A DNA stretch of 64,000 nt from an uncultured Candidatus Izemoplasmatales bacterium (GCA_964589075.1 CAZPQU010000004.1:59090-123089), one strand, 5' to 3'; positions 10,667 to 31,853 are shown, counted from the first letter of the stretch. Notes: generated by a model from the letters alone, not told the origin. A program made the numbers and translations.

Positions 10667-10694
10667 AATTTGGTGCGGATAACAGGAGTTGAAC
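10667..10694. repeat. distal att site (direct repeat of the tRNA-Leu 3' end)
   Basis: 28 of 28 identity with 51229-51256. Confidence 0.85.
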
Positions 10695-10778
10695 ATTAGT
10701 ACCCACATACAATAGGCTAAGGTTTTCAAAGAACTACACCCCTAAGATATCAAATGAGGGGGACGTATTATGTCACAT
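10688..10778. repeat. 91-nt island repeat, copy 1 (fused to the att core)
   Basis: Identical to the consensus gttgaacattagtaccc...gacgtattatgtcacat. Its first 7 nt overlap the att core. Confidence 0.9.
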
Positions 10779-10975
10779 TGAAAAAAAATCGTATTTTCGA
10801 ACTTTTTTTTGTTTATTAGTTATGAGTTAATTGTCCCTCAAACAGAATCTTCGTCCACATCCTGTAAAATCCACCAAAAACACGATTATTTATTTCAATA
10901 CTCACGAAAAAAAACAATCTTTCTCAGATTGTTTTGGCTCTTATATTGATAATAAAAGAAATTTTTAATGAAAAA

Positions 10976-11296
10976 TTATTCGTTAATTTCAGTGCCCACC
11001 CTTGGAATCTTCTCCCAAATGTCAATGGATTGAAGTTCACCTCCTGCGAAATGCCCATCTATAAAGTTTTCAAAAGTACCTGAATAAGTTATTTGAACAA
11101 TATATCCTTCAGCATATCTGTCATAATCAATCTCATGCTCTTTTGTAATACTAATCCAATATATTTCTTTCTCATCTGTTTCGATGGCTAAAAGACGATA
11201 TTCATCATCATATGTATACACAATACCTTTTATTGTTTTTTCTGTATTTTGGCAACCACCAAGAAGAATAATAAAAACTAAAATGAGTTTTTTCAT
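10976..11296 (-). CDS. small lipoprotein (possible partner or inhibitor of the upstream protease)
   Basis: Signal peptide plus lipobox LLGGC. Lies 22 nt downstream of the protease gene in the same cassette. Confidence 0.45.
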   Translation of the reverse strand: MKKLILVFIILLGGCQNTEKTIKGIVYTYDDEYRLLAIETDEKEIYWISITKEHEIDYDRYAEGYIVQITYSGTFENFIDGHFAGGELQSIDIWEKIPRVGTEINE

Positions 11297-11318
11297 TAGG
11301 TTCCTCCATATAGTCTAT

Positions 11319-12182
11319 TTAGAGATGATCATTCATCAACAAATTGTATAATACTACATCGATATCTCTTGCAACATTATAATATATTGAGTTTATTGTT
11401 ACTGCTCCAACATGAATTCCAACTACTTCATTATTGTAATTTAATACAGGAGAACCGGACATCCCTTCATAAGTATCGTTATCATATAGTATTGTTCTAG
11501 TCTCGAACGCTTCTACTCTTCCCGAACCTTTCCACATTGTATTAGATGGCTTATCACTTGGAAACCCAATTACATTTATAGCGTCATCTATCCCTACAGA
11601 TTTTTGTAATTGAAATTTCTTAATTGAACTATCCACTGACTGAGATAGGGTAATAATTGCATAATCATTTTTATGTCCATCATCAACGTTTATATAATCA
11701 TAACTTACATCAATCGTCTCTGACTGATACATAAAATCGTTGTCAGATGGTCCGCCTCCTGAGTAAACTCTAACGAATGCAGGCATTACTGGATATCCAG
11801 TTGCTCTACCATAGACAACGTGTCCACCTGTAAGGACTGTATTATCATCAAGCATGAAACCAGTCGCTATCGATGGTAAAGGAAAGTATTGGCCAGGAAC
11901 AAGTTTACTCTCATAGTAAACTTCAATTGCAACTATACCATTATATGGTTGTATACTTTTGTTAGTAATTTCTGTTCGACTATCGGAACCAATAACAACT
12001 CTAGTCGTCCTTTCGATGTAACCCGCCTCATCAGCTGAGACTATTTTATCAATTGTACTCTCTTCAATAGATTCAAACGTAATTGTTTCTTTTTTTTTGT
12101 CTTTCGTGTTATTAGACGCATCCACTGAAATTACCATGAACGGAATAATAAGTATCATAAATCCTAAAATTAATTTTTTCAT
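11319..12182 (-). CDS. secreted S1-family (V8 / glutamyl-endopeptidase-like) serine protease
   Basis: Signal peptide. Catalytic triad contexts LTGGHVV (His), NDYAIITL (Asp), GMSGSPV (Ser). Confidence 0.7.
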   Translation of the reverse strand: MKKLILGFMILIIPFMVISVDASNNTKDKKKETITFESIEESTIDKIVSADEAGYIERTTRVVIGSDSRTEITNKSIQPYNGIVAIEVYYESKLVPGQYFPLPSIATGFMLDDNTVLTGGHVVYGRATGYPVMPAFVRVYSGGGPSDNDFMYQSETIDVSYDYINVDDGHKNDYAIITLSQSVDSSIKKFQLQKSVGIDDAINVIGFPSDKPSNTMWKGSGRVEAFETRTILYDNDTYEGMSGSPVLNYNNEVVGIHVGAVTINSIYYNVARDIDVVLYNLLMNDHL

Positions 12183-12293
12183 ATTTTCTCCTTTTTTTTT
12201 TTGCTAATAGATATTGGTATTATAGCATAGATAATAAGGTTGAAAAGTTACAGATTTTTAACCATCCGAAGGTAAGCCGTTATTTGATACATT

Positions 12294-12309
12294 GTTACAA
12301 AACTGTAAC
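12294..12309. promoter_or_regulatory. perfect palindrome GTTACA-N4-TGTAAC upstream of the protease cassette
   Basis: Inverted hexamers at 12294-12299 and 12304-12309. The same hexamer recurs in cassette upstream regions. Confidence 0.35.
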
Positions 12310-12321
12310 ATTTCACTTCTT

Positions 12322-12370
12322 AAAAAATTACAGATTTTTTACTATTGTATAAAATAGATGTAGGTTTGAA
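12322..12370 (-). promoter_or_regulatory. conserved cassette promoter-like module (TGTAAC module)
   Basis: The minus-sense sequence ...TTTATACAATAGTAAAAAATCTGTAATTTTT aligns with the modules at 13671-13720, 24321-24362 and 28472-28520. Confidence 0.4.
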
Positions 12371-12404
12371 ACAAAAAAGGCCCTCAAGTTTGGGGGTCAT
12401 GAGA

Positions 12405-12495
12405 GTTCAACATTAGTACCCACATACATTAGGCTAAGGTTTTCAAAGATCTACGCCACTAAGATATCAAATGAGGGGGACGTATTATGTCACAT
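12405..12495. repeat. 91-nt island repeat, copy 2
   Basis: 5 mismatches to the consensus. The core reads GTTCAAC. Confidence 0.9.
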
Positions 12496-12567
12496 TAAAA
12501 AAAAGTCCTATTTTTGGACTTTTTTCGATTATTGTTAGAAGTAACCCTAGAATATGAAACTAGTGTA

Positions 12568-13629
12568 CTAAAGTGACTTTGCACCGATATTTAGCAAAGG
12601 TACCATGTAAATAGTAAGTTGGACAATCAATAGAATCAATGGGGTGCGAGCTGACAATTTGTCTATGTATATATGGAGTGATTTGTTTTCCAAATATTCC
12701 TTTTCCCATTTCTTGAAACTTTTCTCTTCATTAAGTCCGCTATTATTCATTCTTATTGATAATATCTCGAATTTTGATAAAACCTCATTTTCTAACATTT
12801 TGTACACATCAAAGTCAGTGATGTACGGAACAACAATTGTAAAAATCATGAATAGTAGTGTAGCGTAACCATACGATAATAATAGATTTAAAGTACTGTG
12901 TCCAATTACAATATCCATCACTAGTCCCAGAATAATAAATGAACCAGTAGAAGTTATTATCTTTCTATTGAGTCTTCTTAATTGGAAAATTGAAGTTAGC
13001 ATTGTTTTATCTATATATGTCGCTGTTGTTTTAACAGAAAGAACAAACTCTTTAAGTACAACTTTTTTATCAACGTATGCTACTAAAAAATAGGATATTA
13101 AGAAATAGAAAACAATAGAAATTATAAGCCAGGTACCTCGAATTATGACACTCATTAAAATACTAGAATTACCTGGATCAGGAAAACTAAAGTGTTCGTT
13201 TATCACTAGAATTACTGCAAACAGAACAACCAATGTATTCAAAATGAAATTCCTATTGTTCACAGCGATTGATTCTGGCTGTTGTAGCGGTTCCTTCTGC
13301 TCAGGCACTATTCGTGAAAATGTTGTTCTATACTTATTGATTACAAAAATCAGTACAATAATAGAGAATGATCGAAGAAAGAAAAAATTAAATTCAGGCA
13401 TTATTCCTGTTTCCTTTAAGTACTCAAATCTATGTGCTAAGTTCCCAGCTTCTCCTAGAAAGTTCTTAATTCCTTCCATTAAGCTAACATAATCATCAAA
13501 GATGATTACTAAAAATCTGAATAAAATCAACCCCAATACAATCAAACATATCCGTTTTAGGTAAGTTGTCAATGTCTGCTTTAGTTCCAGATTCCTAAAA
13601 ATTCCAAATGTAAAAAACAAATTTCCCAT
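12568..13629 (-). CDS. multi-pass membrane protein, function unknown (single-gene cassette)
   Basis: ORF with GGGAGG 7 nt upstream of the ATG at 13629. About 8 TM helices plus a C-terminal helical region. Confidence 0.5.
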   Translation of the reverse strand: MGNLFFTFGIFRNLELKQTLTTYLKRICLIVLGLILFRFLVIIFDDYVSLMEGIKNFLGEAGNLAHRFEYLKETGIMPEFNFFFLRSFSIIVLIFVINKYRTTFSRIVPEQKEPLQQPESIAVNNRNFILNTLVVLFAVILVINEHFSFPDPGNSSILMSVIIRGTWLIISIVFYFLISYFLVAYVDKKVVLKEFVLSVKTTATYIDKTMLTSIFQLRRLNRKIITSTGSFIILGLVMDIVIGHSTLNLLLSYGYATLLFMIFTIVVPYITDFDVYKMLENEVLSKFEILSIRMNNSGLNEEKSFKKWEKEYLENKSLHIYIDKLSARTPLILLIVQLTIYMVPLLNIGAKSL

Positions 13630-13670
13630 TTTAATACCTCCCATTTAACTTTAGCACATAAAACGATCCT

Positions 13671-13720
13671 CAAAAGTTACAGTTTTTTCACCATTATGTA
13701 TAGTTGGTGTGCGTTGGCGA
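13671..13720 (-). promoter_or_regulatory. conserved cassette promoter-like module (TGTAAC module)
   Basis: Minus-sense CTATACATAATGGTGAAAAAACTGTAACTTTTG. Homologous to the modules at 12322-12370 and 28472-28520. Confidence 0.4.
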
Positions 13721-13752
13721 AAAAAAAGACCTCCAATTTGAGGGTCATAGAT

Positions 13753-13843
13753 GTTGAACATTAGTACCCACATACAATAGGCTAAGGTTTTCAAAGAACT
13801 ACACCCCTAAGATATCAAATGAGGGGGACGTATTATGTCACAT
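13753..13843. repeat. 91-nt island repeat, copy 3
   Basis: Identical to the consensus. Confidence 0.9.
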
Positions 13844-13992
13844 CAAAAAAAAAATTCATTTTATTGAACTTTTTTTTGAAATATGTTTTCATATTATCAA
13901 CCAACAATTTTTGAACATTACAGTTTTAGCATCTAATACAAGATAATAAAGTGTCCAACAATTAGATTGCAACACAATTTATGACTAATTTA

Positions 13993-14961
13993 TTATGAGG
14001 TACACATGTATCGATTTCTATATACCTGTTCTGTTTCTTCAAAAAGACAATCTAGTTCAGCACCTAAAATAGAATATCCGTTTTCAATAGTAGGATGTTT
14101 TAAGAAATCAATAAATTGCTTAGTACTTAATCTTTCCACCAATACCGAAACAAACAACTTCGATAATAAGTAAGCCAATTCTTTTCTGTAATATGAGAAA
14201 TCACCCCATAGCAATTTAATACTGACTTTATCTTCAGGGAACTTAATACTTTTATAAACTATTGATTCATCAAAGTACTCGGCTATACCTTCTCTAATCA
14301 TCCTAGGGCTACTTGTAACATCCTTACTCATATTCTCATGATAAACGTGAGCAATTTCGTGACCACTACTGTCATGCAAATTAACGTGTATCATTGCAAA
14401 AACAGAATTTGTATAGCTAAGGTTATTTCCAATTACGTCCTTCCAATCTATATAAACATATATATCTATTTTTTTCCTCAAAGTAATTTGAAAAAAATGC
14501 TGGATTGAATAATTATAAGCTTCATGACTTGCTATGCATTTTTTCTCTTCAGATTTTAGTATACGTTTATCAATGTGAAAAACAATTTTCTCAGTTTCAA
14601 CAACCCTAAAAAAATTATTCCTAATCCCAAGTAATTCAATCCAGTCTTTTGATTCGTTCGAGAATTCTCCTAAAGACAAGTATGCTTTATCTAAGAACTG
14701 TGTTGACAATTGCGAATTGCCCATTGCGTAATATATTAACCCCACATATCCAAACAATCTGCTGTAGTCTATACTCTTATTGTTGAAATCAGTAATTTCA
14801 TTAAAAACTTCTAATGAGTTGCTTAATTGGTTCGTCTCGAATAGGGCAAATAATAAGTAACTTCTCAAAACATCTGTTATCTGTCCCTGTTCTATAAGAT
14901 TATAAATGCCAATGTAATTTCTATTTTCATATAATTGTTCAATTGTGAAACTACTCTGCAT
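13993..14961 (-). CDS. HExxH protein with a helical-repeat N-terminus (candidate leader peptidase or immunity protein of the RiPP cluster)
   Basis: SGHEIAHVYHE motif. Last gene of the operon. The start was chosen at the Met that overlaps the rSAM stop by 11 nt; the ORF extends to 15012. Confidence 0.45.
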   Translation of the reverse strand: MQSSFTIEQLYENRNYIGIYNLIEQGQITDVLRSYLLFALFETNQLSNSLEVFNEITDFNNKSIDYSRLFGYVGLIYYAMGNSQLSTQFLDKAYLSLGEFSNESKDWIELLGIRNNFFRVVETEKIVFHIDKRILKSEEKKCIASHEAYNYSIQHFFQITLRKKIDIYVYIDWKDVIGNNLSYTNSVFAMIHVNLHDSSGHEIAHVYHENMSKDVTSSPRMIREGIAEYFDESIVYKSIKFPEDKVSIKLLWGDFSYYRKELAYLLSKLFVSVLVERLSTKQFIDFLKHPTIENGYSILGAELDCLFEETEQVYRNRYMCTS

Positions 14962-16213
14962 AAAAGTATGGCAAAGACACCATTTCAAACTCAGAGCAAA
15001 CTCTACTACCATGGTTAATATTGTGGAGGATACACCCCCCTAAGCAATCCGGAAGTAATTTGCATTCCATGCACTTTTTATCTTCAAAGCAGTTCAACGC
15101 TTGGTACCAATCAAATATTTTATTACCATCAAGTTGTAACTCCCCATCATCATCAATAAAACCAATTTGTGCTTTCTCTTGTGAAAGGACATTTAGACAT
15201 TTCCAAACTGTTAAATCTGGAAGAATATAAAGGAAGTTTTCATTCGTACAGGATTCACAGGATCTATTATAATGAATATTACTCACAGTATTGTATCCTA
15301 TTTCAACTGCCATTTTGTATAAGTCATTAAAATCAGCCGAAGAATTCTCATTATTACCCTCAAACATTTCTGTGTCATAAACAGCACGGAAGTATACTTT
15401 CATTTTGCTTCTATATTCTGGCAAAACAGATTCTAATGTTTCCAGTATTTCTTCATTTGAGTTGTTATTGAGGTTAATTCTTAATATAAAATGAAACTCC
15501 TCCACGTCGAGGTATTTTGATATTGTGTCATTTATCTTACCCATTATTAAATCATATGATTTTTTTCCTGTTTTAAATTTTCTAGTTTGATCGTGTGTTT
15601 CCCTAGACCCATCAATAGTAATCTGCATCATTTTGCAGTTATTCTTGATAAGTTCCGACATTATATCTTCCGTCAAAAGTGAGCCATTAGTAATTATTGA
15701 GTTTCCAAAGTCTGTGTTTACTTCCTTACATATTTGCGAAGTGTTATTTATTAGGTTAATTAATTCACTACTAAACAACAATGGTTCTCCTCCAAATAAA
15801 CTCATTTCAAGATAAGTGTAGAATTTACTATACTTCTTAACGTATTTTTCAATAGTCTCGAAATAGTCTTTCTTTTTCACGCTATTTCTAAAAGGTTCTT
15901 CAAAACAATACTCACAGGCAAAATTACACTCCATGGTAGGTACTAGTATCAAATTCAATTGAGAGTTGTCAAAGAATTTTCTGTCAAAAAGGAACTTAAC
16001 TTTCTTGAATTCGTTCTCATCTTGAAGTACAATGAAACCATTCTCTACTAACTCACTGTACTGCATATTGTTTGGAAATTTATTCATTTCCTGTACAATT
16101 TCAGGTAGAGATGTATCCGGATCAATGCTCATAAATGCTTTTGTTACGGAATTATAAATTACCTCTTCTCCATTTATTACTTTATCTATATTATAATAAC
16201 TACTTTTATACAT
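14951..16213 (-). CDS. radical SAM / SPASM-domain peptide maturase
   Basis: CNFACEYC (Cx3Cx2C), GGEPLL, and C-terminal Cys clusters (CESC...WKC...CMECKLLPDCLGGC). Confidence 0.8.
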   Translation of the reverse strand: MYKSSYYNIDKVINGEEVIYNSVTKAFMSIDPDTSLPEIVQEMNKFPNNMQYSELVENGFIVLQDENEFKKVKFLFDRKFFDNSQLNLILVPTMECNFACEYCFEEPFRNSVKKKDYFETIEKYVKKYSKFYTYLEMSLFGGEPLLFSSELINLINNTSQICKEVNTDFGNSIITNGSLLTEDIMSELIKNNCKMMQITIDGSRETHDQTRKFKTGKKSYDLIMGKINDTISKYLDVEEFHFILRINLNNNSNEEILETLESVLPEYRSKMKVYFRAVYDTEMFEGNNENSSADFNDLYKMAVEIGYNTVSNIHYNRSCESCTNENFLYILPDLTVWKCLNVLSQEKAQIGFIDDDGELQLDGNKIFDWYQALNCFEDKKCMECKLLPDCLGGCILHNINHGSRVCSEFEMVSLPYFYAE

Positions 16214-16290
16214 AATCTTTACGAGTGATATTCACTCTTCCTTTCACGTTTTTTTGGAGTTCAACAATGAGAATACTATTTTAGTTTATC

Positions 16291-16464
16291 CTATGCTGCA
16301 GTGGGACAATTTCCTGTACAAGTACAAGCATCTCTAGGCGAGATGTACAGAGATTTGCCTACTTCAGTAGCTGATTCTTCAATTTTCTTTACAGTATTTA
16401 ATTTGGCGTTTCTTATGATTGTAAACATCTTTGATTTATTATTTTTCATTGCTTCTTTTTTCAT
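16291..16464 (-). CDS. RiPP precursor peptide (57 aa, Cys-rich C-terminal core DACTCTGNCPTAA)
   Basis: AGGAG 6 nt upstream of the ATG at 16464. Lys-rich leader followed by a 3-Cys core. Located immediately upstream of the rSAM gene. Confidence 0.6.
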   Translation of the reverse strand: MKKEAMKNNKSKMFTIIRNAKLNTVKKIEESATEVGKSLYISPRDACTCTGNCPTAA

Positions 16465-16532
16465 AATATCCTCCTGAATTTTATGTATATTTGGATTACT
16501 GATAATCCATTGTATTCTCATTGTGAACCCTG

Positions 16533-20460: not shown

Positions 20461-20551
20461 GTTGAACATTAGTACCCACATACAATAGGCTAAGGTTTTC
20501 AAAGAACTACACCACTAATATATCAAATGAGGGGGACGTATTATGTCACAT
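20461..20551. repeat. 91-nt island repeat, copy 4
   Basis: 2 mismatches to the consensus. Confidence 0.9.
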
Positions 20552-20748
20552 CAGAAAAAAAGGATAAATTATCATCCTTTTTCAATTTGAACCTGCCCCT
20601 TAAAGTTTAAATACATAACAGAATTTTTCAATTAATTTGTACTGTGTCAAGGATACCTCGTTGTTTAATTCATACTTAAATCCATTTATATAAGTTACAT
20701 AATGTTATGCTTTTTTTCCTTAGTTTACTCTTCGAAGTAAACTTTACA

Positions 20749-22247: not shown

Positions 22248-22402
22248 TATTTTGTCTCCCTACCATTTTCACTAATTATACACCATAATTACTTCAGTAA
22301 AAAGCGCATGAGTTTGATAATGGACTCATAGTGATACAAACTCGAACTAATTTACTTATTGATTTCCAGTGTAGTCAGATACTAAATAGACTGGTCCTAA
22401 GA

Positions 22403-22493
22403 GTTGAACATTAGTACCCACATACAATAGGCTAAGGTTTTCAAAGAACTACACCCCTAAGATATCAAATGAGGGGGACGTATTATGTCACAT
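22403..22493. repeat. 91-nt island repeat, copy 5
   Basis: Identical to the consensus. Confidence 0.9.
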
Positions 22494-22624
22494 TTAAAAA
22501 AAAGTCCAGTTTATCGAACTTTTTTTGATACATAGGATTTCAATTTTGTAATATTTAAAAGTATCAAAAGTGTAACATTTCAACAACTCCATATATGATA
22601 GACTTAGGTCAAGGAGGTGAAGGC

Positions 22625-22816
22625 ATGAGACTTATAGACACAACAGAAATGGACGGAACTAGAATTACAATTAACGCTGATAATATATCATTCATAAGAG
22701 GATATGAAACCTATACCAGAGTATTCCTCAATACCTCAGATGCAAATTACATTAACTTTATTGATGTTAATGATACATATGAAGTATTTCAAAATTTGTT
22801 GCAACAACTACAATAA
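22625..22816 (+). CDS. small protein (63 aa), FlbD/LytTR-like beta-rich pattern, function unknown
   Basis: AGGAGG RBS 7 nt upstream of the ATG at 22625. The only gene in its cassette, and on the opposite strand to most cargo. Confidence 0.4.
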   Translation: MRLIDTTEMDGTRITINADNISFIRGYETYTRVFLNTSDANYINFIDVNDTYEVFQNLLQQLQ

Positions 22817-22843
22817 AAAAGACCATTCTATTTGGTCACAGAA

Positions 22844-22934
22844 GTTGAACATTAGTACCCACATACAATAGGCTAAGGTTTTCAAAGAACTACACCCCTA
22901 AGATATCAAATGAGGGGGACGTATTATGTCACAT
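22844..22934. repeat. 91-nt island repeat, copy 6
   Basis: Identical to the consensus. Confidence 0.9.
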
Positions 22935-23030
22935 TAAAAAAAAAGTTCAGATTTTGAACTTTTTTTTAGCAGTTAAAATATAATCTCACTACCTTGTATC
23001 TCAAACTTATCGTCATTTTACAAGGGATAC

Positions 23031-24254
23031 TTAGTTACTTAGAACTTGGGTTAGATTTTTTAGTCTAGCTAGTACTTCATCATATGTAATGACTACCACG
23101 TCACTAAAACTGTTTCTAAATAGTTCAAAAGACTTCTCTCTGTCTATACCTACTATTTCATCTAATCTTCCAATAATTACATAAGCTATTGGTCTGTATG
23201 CTTTTGTTTGATAATCCGAATGAGTATTCCTAACCGGCAAATCAATTATAAAGTTAAACCTTTGTATGCATACTTGAGTGATTGAACCACTCAATTCATT
23301 ACTAGGTCCAAAGACTGTATCGGGTCTGTAGGCGTTAGTTTTCAGCAATGGAGTAGTAGGTTTCTTAATTTCAATCACGGATACAACTTGATCGTTCCAT
23401 TTTGCAATAAAATCCGTGAATGTACTTCCTTTTCCACTGATTTTTGTTCCACCAGTGAATCTATCTTCACCTATCATATGACAAGTAGTTGGAATTACAA
23501 GTGGTAACAGAAAGGAGTTGGTAGTAAAGAACTCCTGACATTCTGGTTCTGATGGACTCCCTCCTATTAAAGTTTCAAAATCCTCGATAGCTAACTCCAA
23601 TATTGATCTTCCAATTTTAGAGTTTAGCTCTTGAAGTTTCTCAATATCAAATTTTTCTAATAAAAGGTCAATATTATCTTTATTTTCCAAGTATGCTTTA
23701 ACAGATTCAGGAGACTCAGAAACCTTTAGTAGTATCTCTGGATTAATTAATTTCAGTGTAGCCGTTATGTCTTCAATATTGTCCCCAGATAGCAAATCAA
23801 TCAAGTCATTTAGTTCTGTTTTTTTTGCAAATCTAAGCACTTTATTTACTAATTCCTTATCCTTCTCAATATTGGAGTTAAACAACAAATGTTGCTCTCT
23901 TAAAAAATAGTAATCATTATTTCCAAAAGATAAATCTGCATCTTCATACATTTTCTTAAGTTCACCTGATATGCTTATTAATTCAAAAAGGTCATCTCTA
24001 CTCAAGTCAACTTTAGTCCACTCCCCAGCTTTTAAGTTATTAAGAGAAATAGAGTCTTGGTCGCTCCAATCCTCACTGGTCTTCTTTTTTTGGTAAATCA
24101 ATTTCCCTGAAACTATTTTCTCCGGGTTAGAACTTGCTCTAACTAATTTAGGATAATAAACTAATCTTCCGGTTTTGTTACTTCTTAGTACGACACCAGT
24201 ACATTTTGAGGTCGCCCTCGAATCACTCATTACGTTTATAGATATTAATTGCAT
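23031..24254 (-). CDS. Shedu-like defence nuclease (DUF4263-type PD-(D/E)xK C-terminal domain)
   Basis: C-terminal FTDFIAKWNDQVVSVIEIKKPTTPLL ... ELSGSITQV matches the D...E-x-K plus downstream Q pattern of SduA-type proteins. 407 aa is a typical length. Confidence 0.55.
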   Translation of the reverse strand: MQLISINVMSDSRATSKCTGVVLRSNKTGRLVYYPKLVRASSNPEKIVSGKLIYQKKKTSEDWSDQDSISLNNLKAGEWTKVDLSRDDLFELISISGELKKMYEDADLSFGNNDYYFLREQHLLFNSNIEKDKELVNKVLRFAKKTELNDLIDLLSGDNIEDITATLKLINPEILLKVSESPESVKAYLENKDNIDLLLEKFDIEKLQELNSKIGRSILELAIEDFETLIGGSPSEPECQEFFTTNSFLLPLVIPTTCHMIGEDRFTGGTKISGKGSTFTDFIAKWNDQVVSVIEIKKPTTPLLKTNAYRPDTVFGPSNELSGSITQVCIQRFNFIIDLPVRNTHSDYQTKAYRPIAYVIIGRLDEIVGIDREKSFELFRNSFSDVVVITYDEVLARLKNLTQVLSN

Positions 24255-24320
24255 ATTAAGCCTCCCTATTATACTTTCATGATCGCGTTTTGTTATATTA
24301 TATCATCTCATACTCAATAA

Positions 24321-24362
24321 TAAAGTCACATTTATTTCACCATTGTGTAAAATGGATATGGT
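24321..24362 (-). promoter_or_regulatory. TGTAAC/TGTGAC-type promoter-like module upstream of the Shedu-like gene
   Basis: Minus-sense CCATTTTACACAATGGTGAAATAAATGTGACTTTA aligns with the other cassette modules. Confidence 0.35.
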
Positions 24363-24421
24363 CACTTGTACATTATATAAATGTAAAGTAAACTTTAGGT
24401 ATAATTACAAAGGAGATTAAT

Positions 24422-24988
24422 ATGAAAAAAAGTAAAAGAAAAGGTGTTATTAAACAAGTAGTTCGGGATTTGACATATTCAATTGTGTCGTTTATGTATT
24501 TGATATTATCACTGCTTGCATTTTATCAGATTGGATTTACAATTAGTCTAATACTATTGGGTCTTTTTGCATTAGCAAGCATTCTTATGATGCTGAGTTT
24601 TTTTTTAGGAAATCAACCTTATAAAACATATCTTGCGACATTCATAGGCTCATTTTTCCTCTCTGTGGGTGTTTTCTTTAATATTGCTAAGTTAATCTCT
24701 ATGATAAACAATAAGTATCTCACTGAGATTCTAATAATGGGGACTATCCTAGTTATTGGTTATGCTCCCATATTAGTAAATCACATATTATTTAAAACTA
24801 GAAAAAGTTATGTCTCGAGATTATCAATGTATGTAATTGCATTAACAATGTTACTAATAGACTACTTCCTAACGGTATTTGAGGGAGGGACTTCCCCCTT
24901 ACAAAGTGCAGTATGGATTATACTTCTTGTTGACAATATAATTCAGTTGGTAATGAAAGAAGTATCGAACCGACTAGTGGAGGAATAG
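24422..24988 (+). CDS. membrane protein (5-6 TM), function unknown
   Basis: AGGAG RBS. 188 aa, strongly hydrophobic. Confidence 0.5.
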   Translation: MKKSKRKGVIKQVVRDLTYSIVSFMYLILSLLAFYQIGFTISLILLGLFALASILMMLSFFLGNQPYKTYLATFIGSFFLSVGVFFNIAKLISMINNKYLTEILIMGTILVIGYAPILVNHILFKTRKSYVSRLSMYVIALTMLLIDYFLTVFEGGTSPLQSAVWIILLVDNIIQLVMKEVSNRLVEE

Positions 24989-25070
24989 AGTGTTTCAACA
25001 TAAAAATTCAAAAATTGTAACTTTTAGAATGATTATAAAATGCTATTATAGATTAAGGAGGACTTTTTAA

Positions 25071-25292
25071 ATGAAAAAAAACGTCCATGTAACAAAGCAT
25101 CCCGAGGGATGGCAAAGTAAAAAGGCTGGTAACTCAAGAGCGTCTTCTGTACATTCTACCCAAGCTGAGGCTATAGCAAGAGGTAGAGAATTAGCGAAAG
25201 CAGAGCAATCAGAATTACTAATTCACGGCCGAGATGGCAAAATAAGAGAAAAAGATAGTCATGGACCTGACCCAAGAAGGATTAAAGGTTAA
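25071..25292 (+). CDS. DUF2188-like small protein
   Basis: Pattern VHVTKHPEGWQSKKAGNSRASSVHSTQAEAIARGRELA...LIHGRDGKIREKDSHGPDP. AGGAGG RBS. GC content is locally higher than the surroundings. Confidence 0.55.
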   Translation: MKKNVHVTKHPEGWQSKKAGNSRASSVHSTQAEAIARGRELAKAEQSELLIHGRDGKIREKDSHGPDPRRIKG

Positions 25293-25294
25293 AC

Positions 25295-26011
25295 ATGATA
25301 GCTATATTTCAGACGGCTACAATTATTTTTGTTTTTATACCTGGAATAATGAGATCATATATGTTCTCGACTTATTCTTCAAAAAAGAACCACAAGAATT
25401 CCTGGGATTATTTAAGTGAAATAATTTCATTCTCTACCCTTATTTATTCGATTTCATTTGTAATATTTATTATATATGATTTTATATTTTTCTCGAAGTT
25501 TAAAGGGCTGGACCTACTGGGACTTGCTTTAAGAGCTGAAGATAGTGATAAAATATTAATATCGATATTCACTTTATTAATAGTATCGTTTTTTGCCTTT
25601 ATTTGGATTACACTCGAACTCAAAAGAGAAAACTCGGGACAATCTGGACCAATGAGTAAGCTAACAAATAGTGAAAACACAATTAATAACACAACTCTTG
25701 AAACCTTCTTCGATTTACATGTAAAATATCGAAATAGAGAAATAGTAGATAAACTATCTTTCGTTCAAATTTTAGATTTAAAAGAAAGAATACTTTATGA
25801 GGGATTGATTAATTCCATTCCCCTAAGTGACCAGGATGAAAGATACGAGAGAACAATACCATTACTCCTTGAAAATACCTATGCTTACAAAATGAGTGAT
25901 GATTGCACAGAGATTACTGAAGACTTGTATGAATCTCAATATTTAACTTTAGGCTTTAACCCTGAACATATGACTATAAGAATAGAAGGAGAAAGTGACT
26001 TAGATGATTAA
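25295..26011 (+). CDS. membrane protein, function unknown
   Basis: 238 aa with 4 N-terminal TM helices and an acidic C-terminal domain. Starts 2 nt after the previous stop. Confidence 0.45.
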   Translation: MIAIFQTATIIFVFIPGIMRSYMFSTYSSKKNHKNSWDYLSEIISFSTLIYSISFVIFIIYDFIFFSKFKGLDLLGLALRAEDSDKILISIFTLLIVSFFAFIWITLELKRENSGQSGPMSKLTNSENTINNTTLETFFDLHVKYRNREIVDKLSFVQILDLKERILYEGLINSIPLSDQDERYERTIPLLLENTYAYKMSDDCTEITEDLYESQYLTLGFNPEHMTIRIEGESDLDD

Positions 26012-26162
26012 AAAAGAACATCCACAAAATCCCAACCCTAATAAGGGTAAAGATTCAAGCAAAAACAGTACAGTTACTCTTCACGATCACTCTGTAAAAC
26101 GCTCAAAAACTACACCTAGGAATACTCCAAACCCTAAACCACCAAAACGACCAAAGGGTTAG
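26004..26162 (+). CDS. possible small basic protein (52 aa), absent from the supplied ORF track
   Basis: ATG at 26004 overlaps the stop of the upstream gene, with GGAGAAAG upstream. Product is Lys/Pro/Asn-rich. Followed by the terminator at 26229. Confidence 0.3.
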   Translation: MIKKEHPQNPNPNKGKDSSKNSTVTLHDHSVKRSKTTPRNTPNPKPPKRPKG

Positions 26163-26228
26163 ATGTAGAATTTTAAAGGTTGTTATACTAAGAAAAAAAC
26201 AGACCAGTTTATGAAGTGAACCCCAAAA

Positions 26229-26261
26229 GGTAGACATATGAAAAAAGAGTCTACCTTTTTT
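26229..26261 (+). terminator. intrinsic terminator of the plus-strand operon 24422-26162
   Basis: ggtagac-N13-gtctacc followed by TTTTTT. Confidence 0.55.
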
Positions 26262-26403
26262 CGTTCTTCGTCTTGTTGTTTTGTAGAAATACATCCACTC
26301 ATGAACTTGATTTATGTATTCCTCTAGTGAAGTGATATTATTAATGTAGAGAGTTTCTTTACTTATAAGATTAAAAAAGACCCACTTTGCCGGGGTCATA
26401 GAA

Positions 26404-26494
26404 GTTGAACATTAGTACCCACATACAATAGGCTAAGGTTTTCAAAGAACTACACCCCTAAGATATCAAATGAGGGGGACGTATTATGTCACAT
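26404..26494. repeat. 91-nt island repeat, copy 7
   Basis: Identical to the consensus. Confidence 0.9.
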
Positions 26495-26655
26495 TAAAAA
26501 AAAAGATGAAATTTCATCTTTTTAAATTTATTCGTTTGTTGTTTATTTTGTATCCAGTACTTATCCTTAGTTACTTAGACAACGCAATGTCATCAACGAC
26601 ATATAATCCATTCACCCTAGTAACTTTTTTCAGAAATATCTATAACAACTCACAT

Positions 26656-27018
26656 TTACTCTTTAGCTTCGTTAGTATTACTCTTCATCATCTTTTTTTT
26701 TGTTTTTCTAAGTAGTTTCCTGGTGTGTCTATCTGCTGGAAATATACTGTCGTCAACAATAAAGTAGTGAGATTTACACTCAAAATAGAAGTTACCAACT
26801 GATGGCGTCAAGGATAAAGTCCCATCATAAATTAAACACCAATCATCTTTTCCCAGTATCATATACACTGTCTCTCCGCATCCACATGGGCATTTATGCA
26901 TCACAGCTCTGTTTTTGATCGATATATAAATTACTAAATCATCAACAGTCTCTAAGTTGTGAAATTCATTAACGAATTCAGTTTTAATTTTTATCATGAA
27001 TAAAGTCACCTTCCTCAA
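26656..27018 (-). CDS. small Cys/His-rich protein (DUF6527-like, putative zinc-binding)
   Basis: HKCPCGCGETVYM...W...LSLTPSVGN...CKSHYFIVDDSIF. Overlaps the end of the E1-like gene by 35 nt. Confidence 0.45.
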   Translation of the reverse strand: MRKVTLFMIKIKTEFVNEFHNLETVDDLVIYISIKNRAVMHKCPCGCGETVYMILGKDDWCLIYDGTLSLTPSVGNFYFECKSHYFIVDDSIFPADRHTRKLLRKTKKKMMKSNTNEAKE

Positions 27019-28240
27019 TCACAGTGGTAATGACATTACTTTCCTTAGAGTCATGATAAAAATCAATTGATTGTTTCCATCTAATTACAGCTTGACAAGC
27101 AATCAAGGAATTGATTTCTGCAATTTGAATGTTTGTGGAGTAATCATCATCTTCATTATCGTAAACAATATTTTTTTCGAGATGCTTATTCATGTTACCG
27201 TCAAAGTAAACTAAGCTGCACATAGCATACATCTTACCCTCTCCCAATCTTACGCTTATTCCACAATCAATAAATGGGATTTTCTGTTCAACTAGAAATT
27301 CGACTATTCTTTCTTTGTCTGTTCCTCCATCAATGCTTATAAATACGAAATCAAACCCTTTTATTTCATCTAAGTTAGATTCATCAACATTATAAGGATG
27401 TGGAATAACATCGTACCTAATAAACGAATATCTGCTTGCCTGAAGAGTGGCTTTATTAATTTTACTGTTAACCGTCTCTAATGATAGTGCACCTGGCGTT
27501 CTAAAGGCATTGTGTCCATTAAACTCGTCACCATCAAATAAATGAATTTCAGATACAGGAGTCCTAGCTAAAAAGTCGAGTATATAAGACCCAGTTCCTC
27601 CTACACCTATTAATGCAATTTTCATTTTTCTAAATTTGTTTGCAAGAGAATTAAGATGAAGACTACTGCTATCATCATCAGGATAAATAAAAACACCCTC
27701 AGTTTCTTGATTAAATTCTACTTGTTCTGATTTCTGCTTAAGATCATCCATTGATATTCCGTCACGATCCATTACAAAAAAAGCAGGATCACTGATGTAC
27801 TCATAATATTGAATTATTTTCTCATAATGGGAATTATAGTATTTACATTCTGGTACAGTTGACATTAAAAACTTTGTAGTAAGACCATTAGAATATGGGA
27901 ACTGTACTGCTCCTGGTTTGATTAAATCCTTTATTTCCTCACCATCTATCTCATGTGGAAATTCTCCATCAAAATAGACGGTATGTGAGTTTTGGGCAAC
28001 TGCAGGAGTCATTATTTTTGTGGTGGGGTGCTGGACCATAATGAATGCTGGGATCCCTCTCAAAATAAACGTTTCAATAATAAGGCCAAGTTTTATTGAA
28101 CCATCTTTGCAAATATATGGCACATTTGTGATTGCGATATTTTTATTTCTTAACAGTATTACATCACAACCACGTTCTGTGACCACCTTTAGCTCATTAT
28201 TAAGATCCTTTCGTGTTACCAATGCTAAATACCATGCCAT
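26984..28240 (-). CDS. ThiF/E1-like adenylyltransferase with an uncharacterised ~200-aa N-terminal domain (possible E2-like)
   Basis: Rossmann motif KIALIGVGGTGSYILDFLARTPVSEIHLFDGDEFNGHNAFR, then FVFISIDGGTDKERIVEFL...PFIDCG, as in ThiF/MoeB/E1 folds. Confidence 0.6.
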   Translation of the reverse strand: MAWYLALVTRKDLNNELKVVTERGCDVILLRNKNIAITNVPYICKDGSIKLGLIIETFILRGIPAFIMVQHPTTKIMTPAVAQNSHTVYFDGEFPHEIDGEEIKDLIKPGAVQFPYSNGLTTKFLMSTVPECKYYNSHYEKIIQYYEYISDPAFFVMDRDGISMDDLKQKSEQVEFNQETEGVFIYPDDDSSSLHLNSLANKFRKMKIALIGVGGTGSYILDFLARTPVSEIHLFDGDEFNGHNAFRTPGALSLETVNSKINKATLQASRYSFIRYDVIPHPYNVDESNLDEIKGFDFVFISIDGGTDKERIVEFLVEQKIPFIDCGISVRLGEGKMYAMCSLVYFDGNMNKHLEKNIVYDNEDDDYSTNIQIAEINSLIACQAVIRWKQSIDFYHDSKESNVITTVIEEGDFIHDKN

Positions 28241-28427
28241 CTACTGCATCTATGCAGTTTCCTTTCAATAACTTTGACCCTTGATAAGTAACAGTGTACT
28301 TCGGTTTTTCACCGGGACCTGTTTTCTTTCCAAATAATTTTACTACGTCTTTATAGCAAACTTCCTTTTTTTTATATGGAAAAGATTTTTTTCCAATAAA
28401 AATTGTTATCTCTTTTTCATTATTCAT
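28200..28427 (-). CDS. ubiquitin-like beta-grasp protein (single multiubiquitin-type domain)
   Basis: 75 aa. Alternating beta pattern ITIFIGKKSF...VCYKDVVKLFG...YTVTYQG...IDAVDGMVFSIGNTKGS. First gene of the operon. Confidence 0.45.
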   Translation of the reverse strand: MNNEKEITIFIGKKSFPYKKKEVCYKDVVKLFGKKTGPGEKPKYTVTYQGSKLLKGNCIDAVDGMVFSIGNTKGS

Positions 28428-28471
28428 TTTGTTACCTCCTTTTTCTATATTATATCACCTTCTATGCACTT

Positions 28472-28520
28472 GAAAAGTTACAAATTTTCTACTATTGTGT
28501 AAAGGATGTGGGGTTGAATA
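28472..28520 (-). promoter_or_regulatory. conserved cassette promoter-like module (TGTAAC module)
   Basis: Minus-sense CCTTTACACAATAGTAGAAAATTTGTAACTTTTCA. TTTACA-N17-TAACTT lies 45-90 nt upstream of the Ubl gene. Confidence 0.4.
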
Positions 28521-28551
28521 AAAAAAGACCTCTAATTTAGGGGTCATAGAA

Positions 28552-28642
28552 GTTGAACATTAGTACCTACATACAATAGGCTAAGGTTTTCAAAGAACTA
28601 CACCCCTAAGATATCAAATGAGGGGGACGTATTATGTTACAT
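28552..28642. repeat. 91-nt island repeat, copy 8
   Basis: 2 mismatches to the consensus. Confidence 0.9.
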
Positions 28643-28746
28643 TAAAAAAAAATCCCTTTTATCGGACTTTTTTTGATTCAGTTGATCTAAACTTCTTATA
28701 ATTAAAAGTTGACTAAAGTGTAACTTTTATAGCGAATTTCTCACCT

Positions 28747-31015: not shown

Positions 31016-31064
31016 GGATTGAGACATAAAAACTATAACTTAAAATAACGAAGGAGATTAAATT

Positions 31065-31834: not shown

Positions 31835-31853
31835 ATTATTGACTACTAATCCT

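What the first reader, a model, noticed from the sequence alone, without database searches (positions are those of the whole stretch)
10688..28642. Eight near-identical 91-nt repeats split 18 kb of the tRNA-Leu island into insulated defence/competition cassettes
A 91-nt sequence occurs eight times in the same orientation: 10688-10778, 12405-12495, 13753-13843, 20461-20551, 22403-22493, 22844-22934, 26404-26494 and 28552-28642.

- Five copies are identical and the other three have 2-5 mismatches. The DNA between copies is unrelated.
- Each copy begins with GTTGAAC (GTTCAAC in copy 2). These are the last 7 nt of the 28-nt tRNA-derived att core, and copy 1 is fused directly to that core.
- The 14 nt before the internal copies (for example catagaaGTTGAAC) still resemble the tRNA T-arm (aacaggaGTTGAAC).
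- On the low-coordinate side every copy has an A-run plus a stem-loop. The stem sequence differs between copies but pairing is kept (gacctc/gagggtc, gaccat/tggtc, gaccc/ggggtc).
- On the high-coordinate side there is a hairpin flanked by A8-9 and T7-9. About 115 nt after the first core it often ends in a second (T/C)GAAC (for example 13864-13869 and 22954-22959).
- A GGTTGAAT-like motif also sits about 40 nt before the core, both in several copies and next to the real tRNA (51203-51210).
- The eight intervals carry 1-5 genes each. Nearly all are defence or competition functions.

The layout resembles a chromosomal integron or repeated site-specific accretion of integrase-less cassettes. However, it sits at a tRNA att site and the only recombinase in the window is an ordinary phage-type tyrosine integrase. 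I am not aware of this architecture having been described for low-GC Gram-positive or Mollicutes-like genomes.
Basis: partly seen in the sequence, partly recalled or inferred. Interest (0 to 1): 0.9.

Follow-up and report, generated by a model that had tools for sequence, protein, structure and literature searches.

The report
Gene cassettes bounded by att-arm repeats
Eight near-identical copies of the end sequence of a mobile element inserted in a tRNA-Leu gene split 18 kb into seven self-contained gene cassettes, several of them anti-phage; the layout resembles an integron, but cassette movement is inferred, not shown.

Summary
Eight direct copies of a 91-nt sequence sit at the stated coordinates: five identical, three with 2-5 mismatches.

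A 28-nt direct repeat (10667-10694 and 51229-51256) delimits a 40.5-kb element in tRNA-Leu. Copy 1 is therefore the integrase-distal att arm, fused to the crossover core GTTGAAC. The seven internal copies keep that core (copy 2 has GTTCAAC). About 10 nt to their left resembles the tRNA-derived half-site more than chance.

New here: a ninth, partial, inverted copy (26 of 28 nt, including the palindrome GACGTATTATGTC) lies in the integrase promoter region at 50157-50193.

The integrase is Xer-like. It is not an integron integrase and has no arm-binding domain.

Cassettes include Shedu, an E1-E2/BubE system, a radical-SAM peptide cluster and a secreted protease.

The repeat is absent from 185,579 reference genomes, IMG/VR, GenBank phages and plasmids. 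One solitary copy occurs in another metagenome, between unrelated genes. No strain polymorphism was available, so mobility is untested.

Best reading (about 0.5): an integron-like or CIME-like cassette array built by recombination at the element's own att site. This is a new variant of a known kind.

The parts
10667..10694 (-). Displaced 3' end of tRNA-Leu plus 4 nt. This is the left copy of the 28-nt att direct repeat and marks the integrase-distal junction of the element.
   Evidence: Exact 28-nt match to 51229-51256. Sequence read.
10688..10778 (+). Repeat copy 1. It is the terminal (integrase-distal) att arm of the element, starts with the core GTTGAAC, and is fused to the tRNA fragment.
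12405..12495 (+). Repeat copy 2. It has 5 mismatches, and its core is GTTCAAC (central base changed), so it probably cannot recombine with the other copies.
13753..13843 (+). Repeat copy 3, identical to the consensus.
20461..20551 (+). Repeat copy 4, with 2 mismatches. One of them changes the putative -10 from TATCTT to TATATT on the minus strand.
22403..22493 (+). Repeat copy 5, identical to the consensus. Its left flank lacks the A-run.
22844..22934 (+). Repeat copy 6, identical to the consensus.
26404..26494 (+). Repeat copy 7, identical to the consensus.
28552..28642 (+). Repeat copy 8, with 2 mismatches. It forms the boundary between the cassette array and the body of the element.
10779..12404 (-). 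Cassette C1: secreted trypsin-like protease (11319-12182) plus lipoprotein (10976-11296).
   Evidence: Pfam Trypsin_2 and a weak MIP-type protease hit. ORFs.
12496..13752 (-). Cassette C2: a 358-aa multi-pass membrane protein of unknown family.
   Evidence: No Pfam or NCBIfam hit.
13844..20460 (-). Cassette C3: radical-SAM/SPASM peptide maturase, an 88-aa Cys-rich candidate precursor, two ABC transporters and a 339-aa protein. Together these form a modified-peptide (bacteriocin-type) cluster.
20552..22402 (-). Cassette C4: 225-aa and 274-aa proteins. The 225-aa protein matches the PADLOC candidate defence family PDC-M43A.
   Evidence: E = 6.5e-9.
22494..22843 (+). Cassette C5: a single 73-aa ORF on the plus strand with its own promoter-like site.
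22935..26403 (.). Cassette C6: Shedu SduA (23031-24254, minus strand), plus a 188-aa membrane protein, a DUF2188 protein and a 238-aa protein on the plus strand.
   Evidence: Pfam SduA_N/SduA_C. PADLOC SduA, E = 6e-58.
26495..28551 (-). Cassette C7: 75-aa protein, E1-like ThiF/DUF6791 protein (26984-28240) and DUF6527/BubE protein (26656-27018). This is a ubiquitin-like conjugation defence-type operon.
28643..49200 (-). Body of the integrative element. It holds HEPN-domain and small cargo genes, then a 17-kb module of membrane-anchored repeat proteins (837, 361 and 361 aa), a 705-aa protein and a DNA methylase. It has no phage or conjugation family hits and is syntenic with an element at the tmRNA gene of Mycoplasmatota bacterium CP074575.1.
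49532..49741 (+). RstR/Cro-type HTH repressor gene of the element.
   Evidence: Pfam HTH_3. NCBIfam phage_RstR.
50157..50193 (-). Ninth, partial, inverted copy of the repeat (positions 55-91). It holds the 13-bp palindrome GACGTATTATGTC, which overlaps the promoter region of the integrase gene.
   Evidence: nhmmer E = 1.2e-4 and 2.5e-6. blastn 26 of 28 nt, E = 4e-6. Palindrome count. Alignment A7.
50213..51160 (+). Xer-like tyrosine integrase of 315 aa, with no N-terminal arm-binding domain.
51229..51256 (-). Right copy of the 28-nt att repeat. It forms the 3' end of the intact tRNA-Leu (51233-51315).

Best explanation
**What it is.** The 91-nt repeat is the integrase-distal attachment-site arm of a 40.5-kb integrative element in tRNA-Leu. 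The arm consists of the crossover core GTTGAAC, an adjacent half-site and about 70 nt of accessory sequence. The seven extra copies mark junctions between seven integrase-less cassettes stacked between the displaced tRNA 3' fragment and the body of the element.

**Proposed mechanism (inferred, not shown).**
1. A cassette exists, at least transiently, as a circle carrying one site: a tRNA-like half-site (GGTCAYAGAA), the core GTTGAAC and the 91-nt arm.
2. The element's Xer-like integrase recombines that site with a resident copy. The result is a direct repeat on each side of the insert.
3. Any two direct copies can excise what lies between them.
4. The tRNA gene is never disrupted, because cassettes enter at the element's distal junction or at an internal copy, not at the tRNA itself.
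5. RecA-dependent exchange between the near-identical 91-nt blocks probably also occurs. That would explain why the blocks stay homogeneous while their flanks drift.

**Second role of the arm (inferred).** The distal 28-46 nt of the arm is a promoter/operator module homologous to the one in front of the integrase gene (palindrome GACGTATTATGTC, then TTTG-n-TAnnnT). One DNA-binding protein would then see both the integrase promoter and every arm, as a recombination accessory factor would. Each arm may also fire a short outward transcript. In the seven internal copies that transcript would be stopped by the left-hand hairpin.
For: **Shown by the sequence.**
- Copy 1 abuts the exact 28-nt tRNA-derived att repeat, and the integrase gene lies next to the intact tRNA. 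The repeat is therefore the element's end.
- All eight copies are in direct orientation, and all lie inside the element. There are none in 32 kb of flanking chromosome, which includes 9.2 kb beyond the window.
- The 7-nt core is exact in 7 of 8 copies.
- The 13 nt to the left of each internal copy match the tRNA-derived half-site at 6-8 positions, where P(>=7) = 0.0155. This holds for copies whose hairpins are otherwise unrelated, and for the copy from another metagenome.
- Identity is graded: 97-100% over the 91 nt, high over the roughly 10 nt to its left in copies 3, 6, 7 and 8, and lower and variable in the hairpin flanks. The hairpin flanks keep their pairing with different sequences.
- The cassettes have their own promoter-like and terminator-like sites and unrelated accessory genes.
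- The ninth partial copy in the integrase promoter region is significant.
- The same unit (4 mismatches in 91 nt, homologous over about 150-170 nt) sits between different genes (GNAT and truA) in an independent metagenome. This shows the unit is not tied to these particular cassettes.

**Precedents.**
- Site-specific accretion with cis-mobilizable elements (PMC5704250).
- Tandem islands at ssrA and at tRNA genes (PMC3146451; 10.1101/2020.12.28.424599).
- Recombination-protein sites that double as integrase operators in KplE1 (PMC2951348).
Against: - No excision product, empty site or cassette polymorphism was seen. Only one strain is on record, and three JGI contigs show the same order.
- The only related element found (CP074575.1: integrase 44% identical, 705-aa protein 48% identical) has no repeat array in the first 10 kb of its cargo. 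It also shares no sequence between its integrase region and its cargo.
- The integrase has no arm-binding domain. The enzyme alone therefore does not explain 84 nt of invariant arm.
- Near-perfect identity over all 91 nt is more than protein-binding sites or a promoter need.
- The left flanks show no homology to the integrase-side arm.
- In the other metagenome the unit is solitary within 6.6 kb, and its core-side hairpin has the opposite terminator polarity.
Confidence: 0.5

Rival explanations
1. The array is a fossil or a passive structure. Related elements or their remnants piled up at tRNA-Leu in the past (classical tandem accretion followed by deletion). Today the internal copies are not integrase substrates. 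Cassette gain, loss and the homogeneity of the 91-nt block come only from RecA-dependent homologous recombination and gene conversion between the repeats.
For: - Five copies are 100% identical over 91 nt while the flanks have diverged. This pattern is typical of concerted evolution.
- 91 nt is ample homology for RecA.
- Tandem islands with decayed members are common at tRNA and tmRNA genes (PMC3146451; PMC5704250; 10.1101/2020.12.28.424599).
- No sign of ongoing mobility was seen in the one population sampled.
Against: - Classical accretion at the tRNA leaves a copy of the tRNA 3' end at every junction. Here only 7 nt are exact, and the next 13 nt are merely similar.
- With zero substitutions in the adjacent 91 nt, there was no time for a 21-nt tRNA copy to decay neutrally.
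- The high-identity block begins at the core or half-site in every copy. Homologous exchange alone does not predict that boundary.
Confidence: 0.2
2. The unit is mainly a regulatory or RNA module, not a recombination site. It would be a terminator-flanked micro-transcription unit: a bidirectional terminator, an integrase-type promoter/operator, about 50 nt of constant RNA, then a terminator. In eight copies it would encode a short RNA, titrate a regulator of the integrase gene, or insulate neighbouring cassettes. The array itself would have arisen by duplication.
For: - About 46 nt is homologous with the integrase promoter region, including a 13-bp palindrome and a conserved TTTG-n-TAnnnT at the same spacing.
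- In the seven internal copies the core-side hairpin is followed by a T-run on the strand this promoter would transcribe. The incoming side is already closed by a bidirectional terminator.
- The minus-strand fold of copy 8 has z = -3.07.
- One substitution in copy 4 improves the putative -10, and one in copy 8 turns a G-U pair into an A-U pair in a predicted hairpin.
Against: - There is no Rfam match, even at E <= 10.
- RNAalifold finds no compensatory pair on either strand.
- The predicted RNA is weakly structured.
- The -35 region is poor, and the generic promoter scan did not pick the site.
- No antisense target exists in the window apart from the integrase-upstream box.
- In the other metagenome the core-side hairpin is not a terminator for this transcript.
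- This reading does not explain why copy 1 is exactly the element's end.
Confidence: 0.15
3. The unit is a REP-like or miniature mobile repeat that spreads through intergenic or terminator regions of this lineage. It merely happens to be dense in this island.
For: A solitary copy lies between a GNAT gene and a truA-type gene in another metagenome contig, with no second copy in 6.6 kb. The unit is short and flanked by hairpins.
Against: - There are eight copies in 18 kb but none in 32 kb of adjacent chromosome, and none in the 22-kb element body apart from the partial copy at the integrase gene.
- The unit has no terminal inverted repeats and no target-site duplication (sequences).
- All copies share one orientation.
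- Copy 1 coincides with the att crossover.
Confidence: 0.05

Closest known systems
Sedentary chromosomal integrons (attC-bounded cassette arrays such as the Vibrio VCR arrays, recently shown to bank anti-phage systems; 10.1101/2024.07.02.601686)
   Same: - An array of small, unrelated accessory or defence cassettes.
- Each cassette is bounded by a highly similar repeat of about 100 nt, in one orientation, next to a tyrosine recombinase gene.
- The repeats within one array are far more alike than function seems to require.
- The core GTTGAAC happens to fit the GTTRRRY consensus.
   Different: - The recombinase is Xer-like, not IntI (integron-integrase model 64 bits against a cut-off of 265).
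- The repeat is not an imperfect palindrome and shows no attC-type fold.
- There is no attI/Pc platform, and the cassettes carry their own promoter-like and terminator-like sites.
- The array sits on an integrative element at a tRNA gene, about 22 kb from the integrase gene.
Site-specific accretion and cis-mobilizable elements (CIMEs) of ICESt1/ICESt3-type elements (reviewed in PMC5704250)
   Same: Integrase-less modules flanked by att sites lie in tandem with a complete element at its integration site. The complete element's integrase could mobilise them in cis.
   Different: - CIMEs are decayed full elements, present as one or two units. Their att sites contain the target gene's end.
- Here there are seven small cassettes. 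The repeated part is the element-side arm, with only 7 exact nt of the tRNA.
Tandem genomic islands at ssrA or tRNA genes (Dehalococcoides ssrA islands, PMC3146451; Prochlorococcus tycheposons, 10.1101/2020.12.28.424599)
   Same: Repeated integration in the T-loop region of a tRNA or tmRNA gene builds arrays of cargo modules separated by direct repeats. Some members lack integrases.
   Different: - In those systems the repeat is the 3' end of the tRNA or tmRNA (about 20 bp or more), and most units carry their own integration module.
- Here the repeat is 84 nt of element DNA plus the 7-nt core, and no internal unit has an integrase.
pdif modules of Acinetobacter plasmids and Xer-dependent integrative elements (from my own knowledge; mentioned in PMC9771954)
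   Same: Discrete gene modules are bounded by multiple sites for a Xer-type simple tyrosine recombinase.
   Different: - pdif sites are 28-bp XerC/XerD sites in alternating orientation and use host Xer proteins.
- Here the sites are direct, carry a 91-nt conserved arm and are linked to an element-encoded enzyme.
Integrase promoters that overlap recombination-protein binding sites (KplE1 intS/TorI, PMC2951348; P2 Cox and 186 Apl from my own knowledge)
   Same: One DNA motif appears both at the integrase promoter and in the att arm. This suggests a protein that both regulates the integrase gene and assists recombination.
   Different: - In KplE1 the promoter lies inside attL.
- Here the shared 28-bp box is a separate inverted copy about 1.1 kb from the core. 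The binding protein is unidentified.

Membership tests
Integron | IntI-clade integrase (integron-integrase model, with the IntI-specific insertion) | tested here: not met
   NCBIfam TIGR02249 scores 63.6 bits in two split stretches against a cut-off of 265, while the XerC model scores 141.8 bits. The best PDB relatives are XerA and XerD; IntI4 matches only residues 247-297.
Integron | attC sites: imperfect palindromes (R''-L''...L'-R') that fold as single-strand hairpins | tested here: not met
   The 91-nt block has no long dyad. Folds of either strand give short local stems only and no conserved closing helix with covariation.
Integron | attI site and Pc promoter next to the integrase gene, with cassettes inserted there and mostly promoterless | tested here: not met
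   The array starts about 22 kb from the integrase gene, at the opposite end of the element. The cassettes have their own promoter-like sites.
Integron | Integrase-catalysed excision and insertion of single cassettes | not testable with these tools
   Needs PCR, long reads or biochemistry. Only one strain is on record.
CIME / site-specific accretion | Units lack integration and transfer genes but are flanked by att sites of a co-resident element | tested here: met
   No recombinase lies in 10779-28551. Each unit is flanked by the core plus arm of the element's att site.
CIME / site-specific accretion | Internal att sites contain the repeated end of the target gene (here 21 nt of the tRNA 3' end) | tested here: inconclusive
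   Only GTTGAAC is exact. The next 13 nt match at 6-8 positions (P(>=7) = 0.0155 per copy, copies not independent). There is no homology to the rest of the integrase-side arm.
CIME / site-specific accretion | Units are decayed derivatives of full elements | tested here: not met
   The cassettes are 0.35-6.6 kb and carry no remnant of the element's core genes.
REP / MITE-type dispersed repeat | Copies scattered in unrelated intergenic regions across the genome | tested here: inconclusive
   There are no copies in 32 kb of flanking chromosome, and there is one solitary copy in another organism's contig. About 190 kb of the 262-kb source contig, and the rest of the genome, could not be read.
REP / MITE-type dispersed repeat | Terminal inverted repeats and target-site duplications | tested here: not met
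   The ends GTTGAACATT... and ...ATGTCACAT are not inverted repeats, and the flanks show no duplicated target.
Described small RNA or cis-regulatory RNA | Match to a curated RNA family, or covariation-supported structure | tested here: not met
   Rfam gathering and E <= 10 scans give nothing credible. No compensatory pairs were found.

The most novel reading that the evidence does not exclude
This would be an independent invention of the integron principle. An integrative element of a wall-less, low-GC bacterium (Mycoplasmatota) uses its own Xer-like, tRNA-targeting integrase and a roughly 200-nt cassette-borne site to capture, stack and shuffle self-expressed defence and competition cassettes at its distal att junction. 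That site comprises a tRNA-like half-site, the core GTTGAAC, a 91-nt arm and a terminator. The arm also carries the integrase gene's own promoter/operator, so cassette recombination and integrase expression would answer to the same regulator.
Probability: 0.3. Interest if true: 0.85.

Novelty: new variant of a known kind. Interest (0 to 1): 0.62.

Why it matters
**If the copies are active sites.**
- Integron-style cassette capture would not be restricted to IntI integrases and attC hairpins. An ordinary Xer-like integrase of a mobile element could do the same job using copies of its own att arm.
- That would give a concrete route by which integrative elements assemble defence islands.
- It would also give a simple rule for finding such arrays elsewhere: look for internal direct copies of an element's integrase-distal att arm.

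**The shared box.** The box common to the integrase promoter and every arm is a directly testable handle on how such a system is regulated.

**If the array is only a fossil of accretion.** It remains an unusually clean example, but an ordinary one.

Tried and rejected
**Searches for the repeat elsewhere.**
- The 20-mer TAGGCTAAGGTTTTCAAAGA gave 0 hits in 185,579 GTDB reference genomes and 0 in IMG/VR.
- In JGI metagenomes it gave one true copy and one chance hit.
- The box pattern gave 0 hits in reference genomes and in IMG/VR.
- blastn of the unit against GenBank phages and PLSDB plasmids gave no match.

**Strain comparison.** Exact-protein look-ups of cassette and flank genes returned only the same strain, in one JGI sample and one NCBI contig. 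Gene order is the same, and contig L001 is base-for-base identical to window 17849-28413. The polymorphism test was therefore impossible. Three look-ups failed because of start-codon differences.

**Relatives of the element.**
- Integrase and 705-aa protein searches found one related element, at the tmRNA gene of CP074575.1. It has no array within reach and no shared sequence between its integrase region and its cargo.
- IMG/VR holds only distant integrases, 23-31% identical.

**RNA hypotheses.** Rfam, single-sequence folds and RNAalifold on both strands gave no support beyond one z-score of -3.07. An antiterminator pairing between the repeat and the left hairpin was considered. It was dropped because the pairing is not kept in copies 5 and 6.

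**Internal sites as attP-like hybrids.** Homology of the left flanks to the integrase-side arm is not significant.

**MITE reading.** There are no terminal inverted repeats and no target duplications.

**Type of the element.** Pfam, PHROGs, NCBIfam, PDB sequence search and tblastn against phages gave nothing. An AlphaFold model of the 705-aa protein was unusable (pLDDT 38), so no fold search was run.

**Composition.** GC content and tetranucleotide profiles do not separate the array from the host flanks.

Full report
**1. Observation.**
- The repeat finder returns one family of eight direct copies, with start-to-start spacings of 1717, 1348, 6708, 1942, 441, 3560 and 2148 nt.
- Over the 91 nt, copies 1, 3, 5, 6 and 7 are identical. 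Copy 2 has five changes, and copies 4 and 8 have two each.
- A profile search of the window and of all fetched loci finds no further full copy.
- The conserved unit is longer than 91 nt. Family D1 spans 179 nt at 71-84% identity, and a profile of the flanked alignment matches about 220-245 nt in every copy.

**2. Where the repeats sit.**
- ARAGORN and Rfam place tRNA-Leu(tag) at 51233-51315 on the minus strand.
- The 28-nt sequence AATTTGGTGCGGATAACAGGAGTTGAAC, which is the tRNA 3' end plus 4 nt, is exact at 51229-51256 and at 10667-10694.
- A tyrosine integrase gene (50213-51160) lies beside the intact tRNA.
- Positions 10695-51228 are therefore a 40.5-kb integrated element.
- Copy 1 begins with the last 7 nt of the att repeat. 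The 91-nt sequence is thus the element's integrase-distal att arm, and GTTGAAC, which lies in the T-loop, is in or at the crossover region.
- All eight copies lie in the distal 18 kb of the element.
- The 22-kb remainder holds genes with almost no family hits. They include membrane-anchored repeat proteins of 837, 361 and 361 aa, a 705-aa protein and a DNA methylase.
- That remainder is syntenic with an element beside the tmRNA gene of Mycoplasmatota bacterium CP074575.1.
- The host is therefore probably an uncultured Mycoplasmatota that uses the standard genetic code. Whether the element is a virus or a conjugative element could not be decided.

**3. Anatomy of the unit.** Reading the plus strand, from left to right:
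- **Left flank.** An A-run and a hairpin with conserved outer pairs (GACC...GGTC), then AYAGAA. Copies 2, 3, 4, 6, 7 and 8 fit. Copy 5 lacks the A-run. Copy 1 has the tRNA fragment and the native tRNA terminator instead.
- **Core.** GTTGAAC.
- **Arm.** 84 further invariant nt.
- **Right flank.** A7-10, a hairpin of variable sequence that keeps its pairing, then T5-9.

The 13 nt to the left of the core match the tRNA-derived half-site at 6-8 positions in every internal copy, and at 7 in the copy from another metagenome. Random window positions reach 7 or more matches with P = 0.0155. End-anchored alignments give P = 0.003-0.03, except copy 5 at 0.2. Several copies share ancestry, so these are not eight independent tests. 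Even so, copies 4, 6 and 7, whose hairpins differ, also show the resemblance.

Beyond that segment, the left flanks have no significant similarity to the integrase-side arm.

Each internal copy thus looks like a complete simple recombination site: a tRNA-like half-site, a 7-bp overlap and a constant half-site. Copy 2 has the central overlap base changed, which should block exchange with the other copies.

**4. A ninth, partial copy at the integrase gene.**
- nhmmer finds positions 55-91 of the repeat, inverted, at 50157-50193 (E = 1.2e-4, or 2.5e-6 with the flanked profile).
- blastn gives 26 of 28 identities (E = 4e-6). It is the only significant extra match of the repeat in the window.
- The shared core is a 13-bp imperfect palindrome, GACGTATTATGTC. 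It occurs in all eight repeats (one mismatch in copy 8) and at 50161-50173. No other site matches with 0 or 1 mismatch, there is a single 2-mismatch hit at 5500, and 1.5 hits are expected by chance at up to 2 mismatches.
- Aligned in the direction of the integrase gene, about 46 nt are homologous: TTTT-ATGTGACATAATACGTCyCyCTCATTTG-nTAnnnT-AGG.
- In front of the integrase gene this reads TTTGTTAGAAT, followed by GAGGAG and the ATG at 50213. I read it as an extended -10 promoter whose -35 region is occupied by the palindrome.
- In the repeats the same positions read TTTGATATCTT (TATATT in copy 4), on the minus strand and pointing at the core.
- What is shown is the homology. That it is a promoter/operator is my inference.
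- The element's RstR-type repressor (49532-49741) has differently shaped repeats in its own upstream region. The protein that would bind the palindrome is therefore unidentified. The 78-aa ORF just upstream (49760-49996) has no family hit.

**5. Cassette content**.
- C1: trypsin-like secreted protease plus lipoprotein.
- C2: unknown membrane protein.
- C3: radical-SAM/SPASM maturase, a Cys-rich 88-aa peptide, two ABC transporters and a 339-aa protein.
- C4: two unknown proteins. The 225-aa one matches the PADLOC candidate family PDC-M43A (E = 6.5e-9).
- C5: a single 73-aa ORF.
- C6: Shedu SduA (E = 6e-58) plus three small genes on the other strand.
- C7: E1-like ThiF/DUF6791, DUF6527/BubE and a 75-aa protein.
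- A HEPN-domain protein follows copy 8.

'Defence or competition' fits four of the seven cassettes, and one of those (C4) rests on a candidate match only. The cassettes have their own promoter-like and terminator-like sites. Most genes run on the minus strand.

**6. Comparative evidence.**
- The repeat is absent from one genome of each of 185,579 species, from IMG/VR, from GenBank phages and from PLSDB plasmids.
- The metagenome scan found one true copy with 4 mismatches (Ga0307989_1014035).
- A longer ENA contig with the same genes (L010, 6.6 kb) shows that this copy is solitary. It lies between a GNAT gene and a truA-type gene, in the same orientation relative to those genes as in the window. 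Upstream are a secreted protease/lipoprotein pair and an MFS transporter. There is no tRNA.
- Its left flank is of the internal type (TCCTATACCCCC after the core), not a tRNA end.
- All exact-protein look-ups for window genes return the same strain, with identical order. The decisive test, cassette polymorphism bounded by the repeats, could not be run.
- The one related element has no array within the 10 kb of cargo that could be read.

**7. The integrase.** It is 315 aa, and its core-binding domain starts at about residue 26, which leaves no room for an arm-binding domain. Its best relatives are XerA and XerD in the PDB and the XerC and XerD models in NCBIfam. The integron-integrase model scores 64 bits against a cut-off of 265. 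Its family is very small in a 5.8-billion-protein collection: only 8 proteins at E <= 1e-20, including the query itself. Two relatives whose loci were examined sit beside a tmRNA gene and a tRNA-Tyr gene.

**8. Interpretation.**
- **Best explanation (about 0.5).** Cassettes are exchanged by recombination at copies of the element's own att site, most likely by the Xer-like integrase acting at GTTGAAC. Insertion into the distal junction or into an internal copy leaves the tRNA intact and reproduces exactly the observed structure: [flank]-core-[91 nt]-cassette-[half-site]-core-[91 nt]. Homologous exchange between the 91-nt blocks would keep them uniform.
- **Second function of the arm.** The integrase alone does not explain 84 invariant nt, so the arm must do something else. 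The shared promoter/operator box points to a protein that acts on the integrase promoter and on every arm, in the manner of KplE1 TorI/IntS (PMC2951348).
- **Rival 1 (0.2).** A fossil of accretion, now maintained only by homologous recombination.
- **Rival 2 (0.15).** A repeated regulatory or small-RNA unit.
- **Rival 3 (0.05).** A REP-like repeat.
- The remaining probability is unassigned.

**9. Relation to known systems.**
- It works like an integron but fails three defining tests: integrase clade, attC structure, and an attI/Pc platform.
- It is closest in logic to site-specific accretion with cis-mobilizable elements (PMC5704250), and to tandem islands at ssrA or tRNA genes (PMC3146451; 10.1101/2020.12.28.424599).
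- In those systems the repeat is the target gene's end, and the units are decayed or complete elements. Here the repeat is the element-side arm, and seven small, integrase-less, self-expressed cassettes are stacked.
- I found no description of this arrangement, in Mycoplasmatota or elsewhere, in the papers searched. That search was limited.
- I rate it a new variant of a known kind, with interest 0.62. The architecture is striking and the ninth copy gives a testable regulatory link. However, the finding rests on a single genome and there is no evidence of mobility.

Noticed in passing
window 56643-56724 (+): A c-di-GMP-I riboswitch (Rfam RF01051, 53.9 bits) lies immediately upstream of, and overlaps the start of, a 1274-aa ORF (56705-60529). 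It is outside the island.
   Followed up: no
window 31854-49159 (-); L005 and L008 (CP074575.1): The body of the element has almost no Pfam, PHROG, NCBIfam or PDB hits. It encodes membrane-anchored proteins with repeated Ig-like segments (837, 361 and 361 aa) and a 705-aa protein with N-terminal membrane helices. The same gene order sits beside the tmRNA gene of a Mycoplasmatota genome. This may be a new type of virus or transfer element of wall-less bacteria.
   Followed up: partly
window 49440-49515 (+): Two copies of a motif close to (C/T)AGGACTAA(T/A)TAG(A/C)CCTAT lie just upstream of the RstR-like repressor gene. They are probably its operators, and they differ from the palindrome shared by the repeats and the integrase promoter.
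   Followed up: no
window 22494-22580 and 28642-28728: The right flanks of copies 5 and 8 share 87 nt at 75% identity, including a plus-strand promoter-like site. Only copy 5 has a plus-strand gene downstream (the 73-aa ORF). After copy 8 the homologous stretch runs into the end of the minus-strand HEPN gene, so it looks like the remnant of a lost cassette.
   Followed up: partly
window 12317-12404, 13665-13752, 28464-28551 (partly 20400-20460): Cassettes C1, C2 and C7 (and in part C3) share a homologous stretch of about 85 nt at their promoter-proximal ends (AAAAGTTACA...TATTGTATAAAGTAG...). The conserved cassette-borne site therefore extends well to the left of the core in some cassettes.
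   Followed up: partly
L010 812-2410 versus window 10976-12182: The contig from another metagenome that carries the solitary repeat also encodes a secreted serine protease followed by a small lipoprotein. This is the same pair and the same order as cassette C1, although no sequence similarity was detectable by tblastx.
   Followed up: no
L010 269-295, 5199-5232, 6188-6221: A hairpin of about 24 nt (GGGTTCTGTTGCAAAAACAGAGCC) occurs three times in 6.6 kb and brackets the truA-type gene. It is a separate REP-like terminator repeat in that organism.
   Followed up: no
window 6584-9240 (-): Two adjacent genes with CDGSH-type zinc-finger, Fer4_19 and glutamate-synthase domains contain internal 69-nt and 300-nt repeats (families D2 and D3). 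This is domain duplication in host genes and is unrelated to the finding.
   Followed up: no
window 10688-10778 and the other copies, plus strand, positions 70-91: On the plus strand the box reads as a strong ribosome-binding site (GAGGGGGA), a 7-nt spacer and ATG TCA CAT. In five of the eight copies a stop codon follows at once. The inverted copy before the integrase gene opens a 17-codon ORF. I treated this as a by-product of the palindrome, but it remains unexplained.
   Followed up: partly
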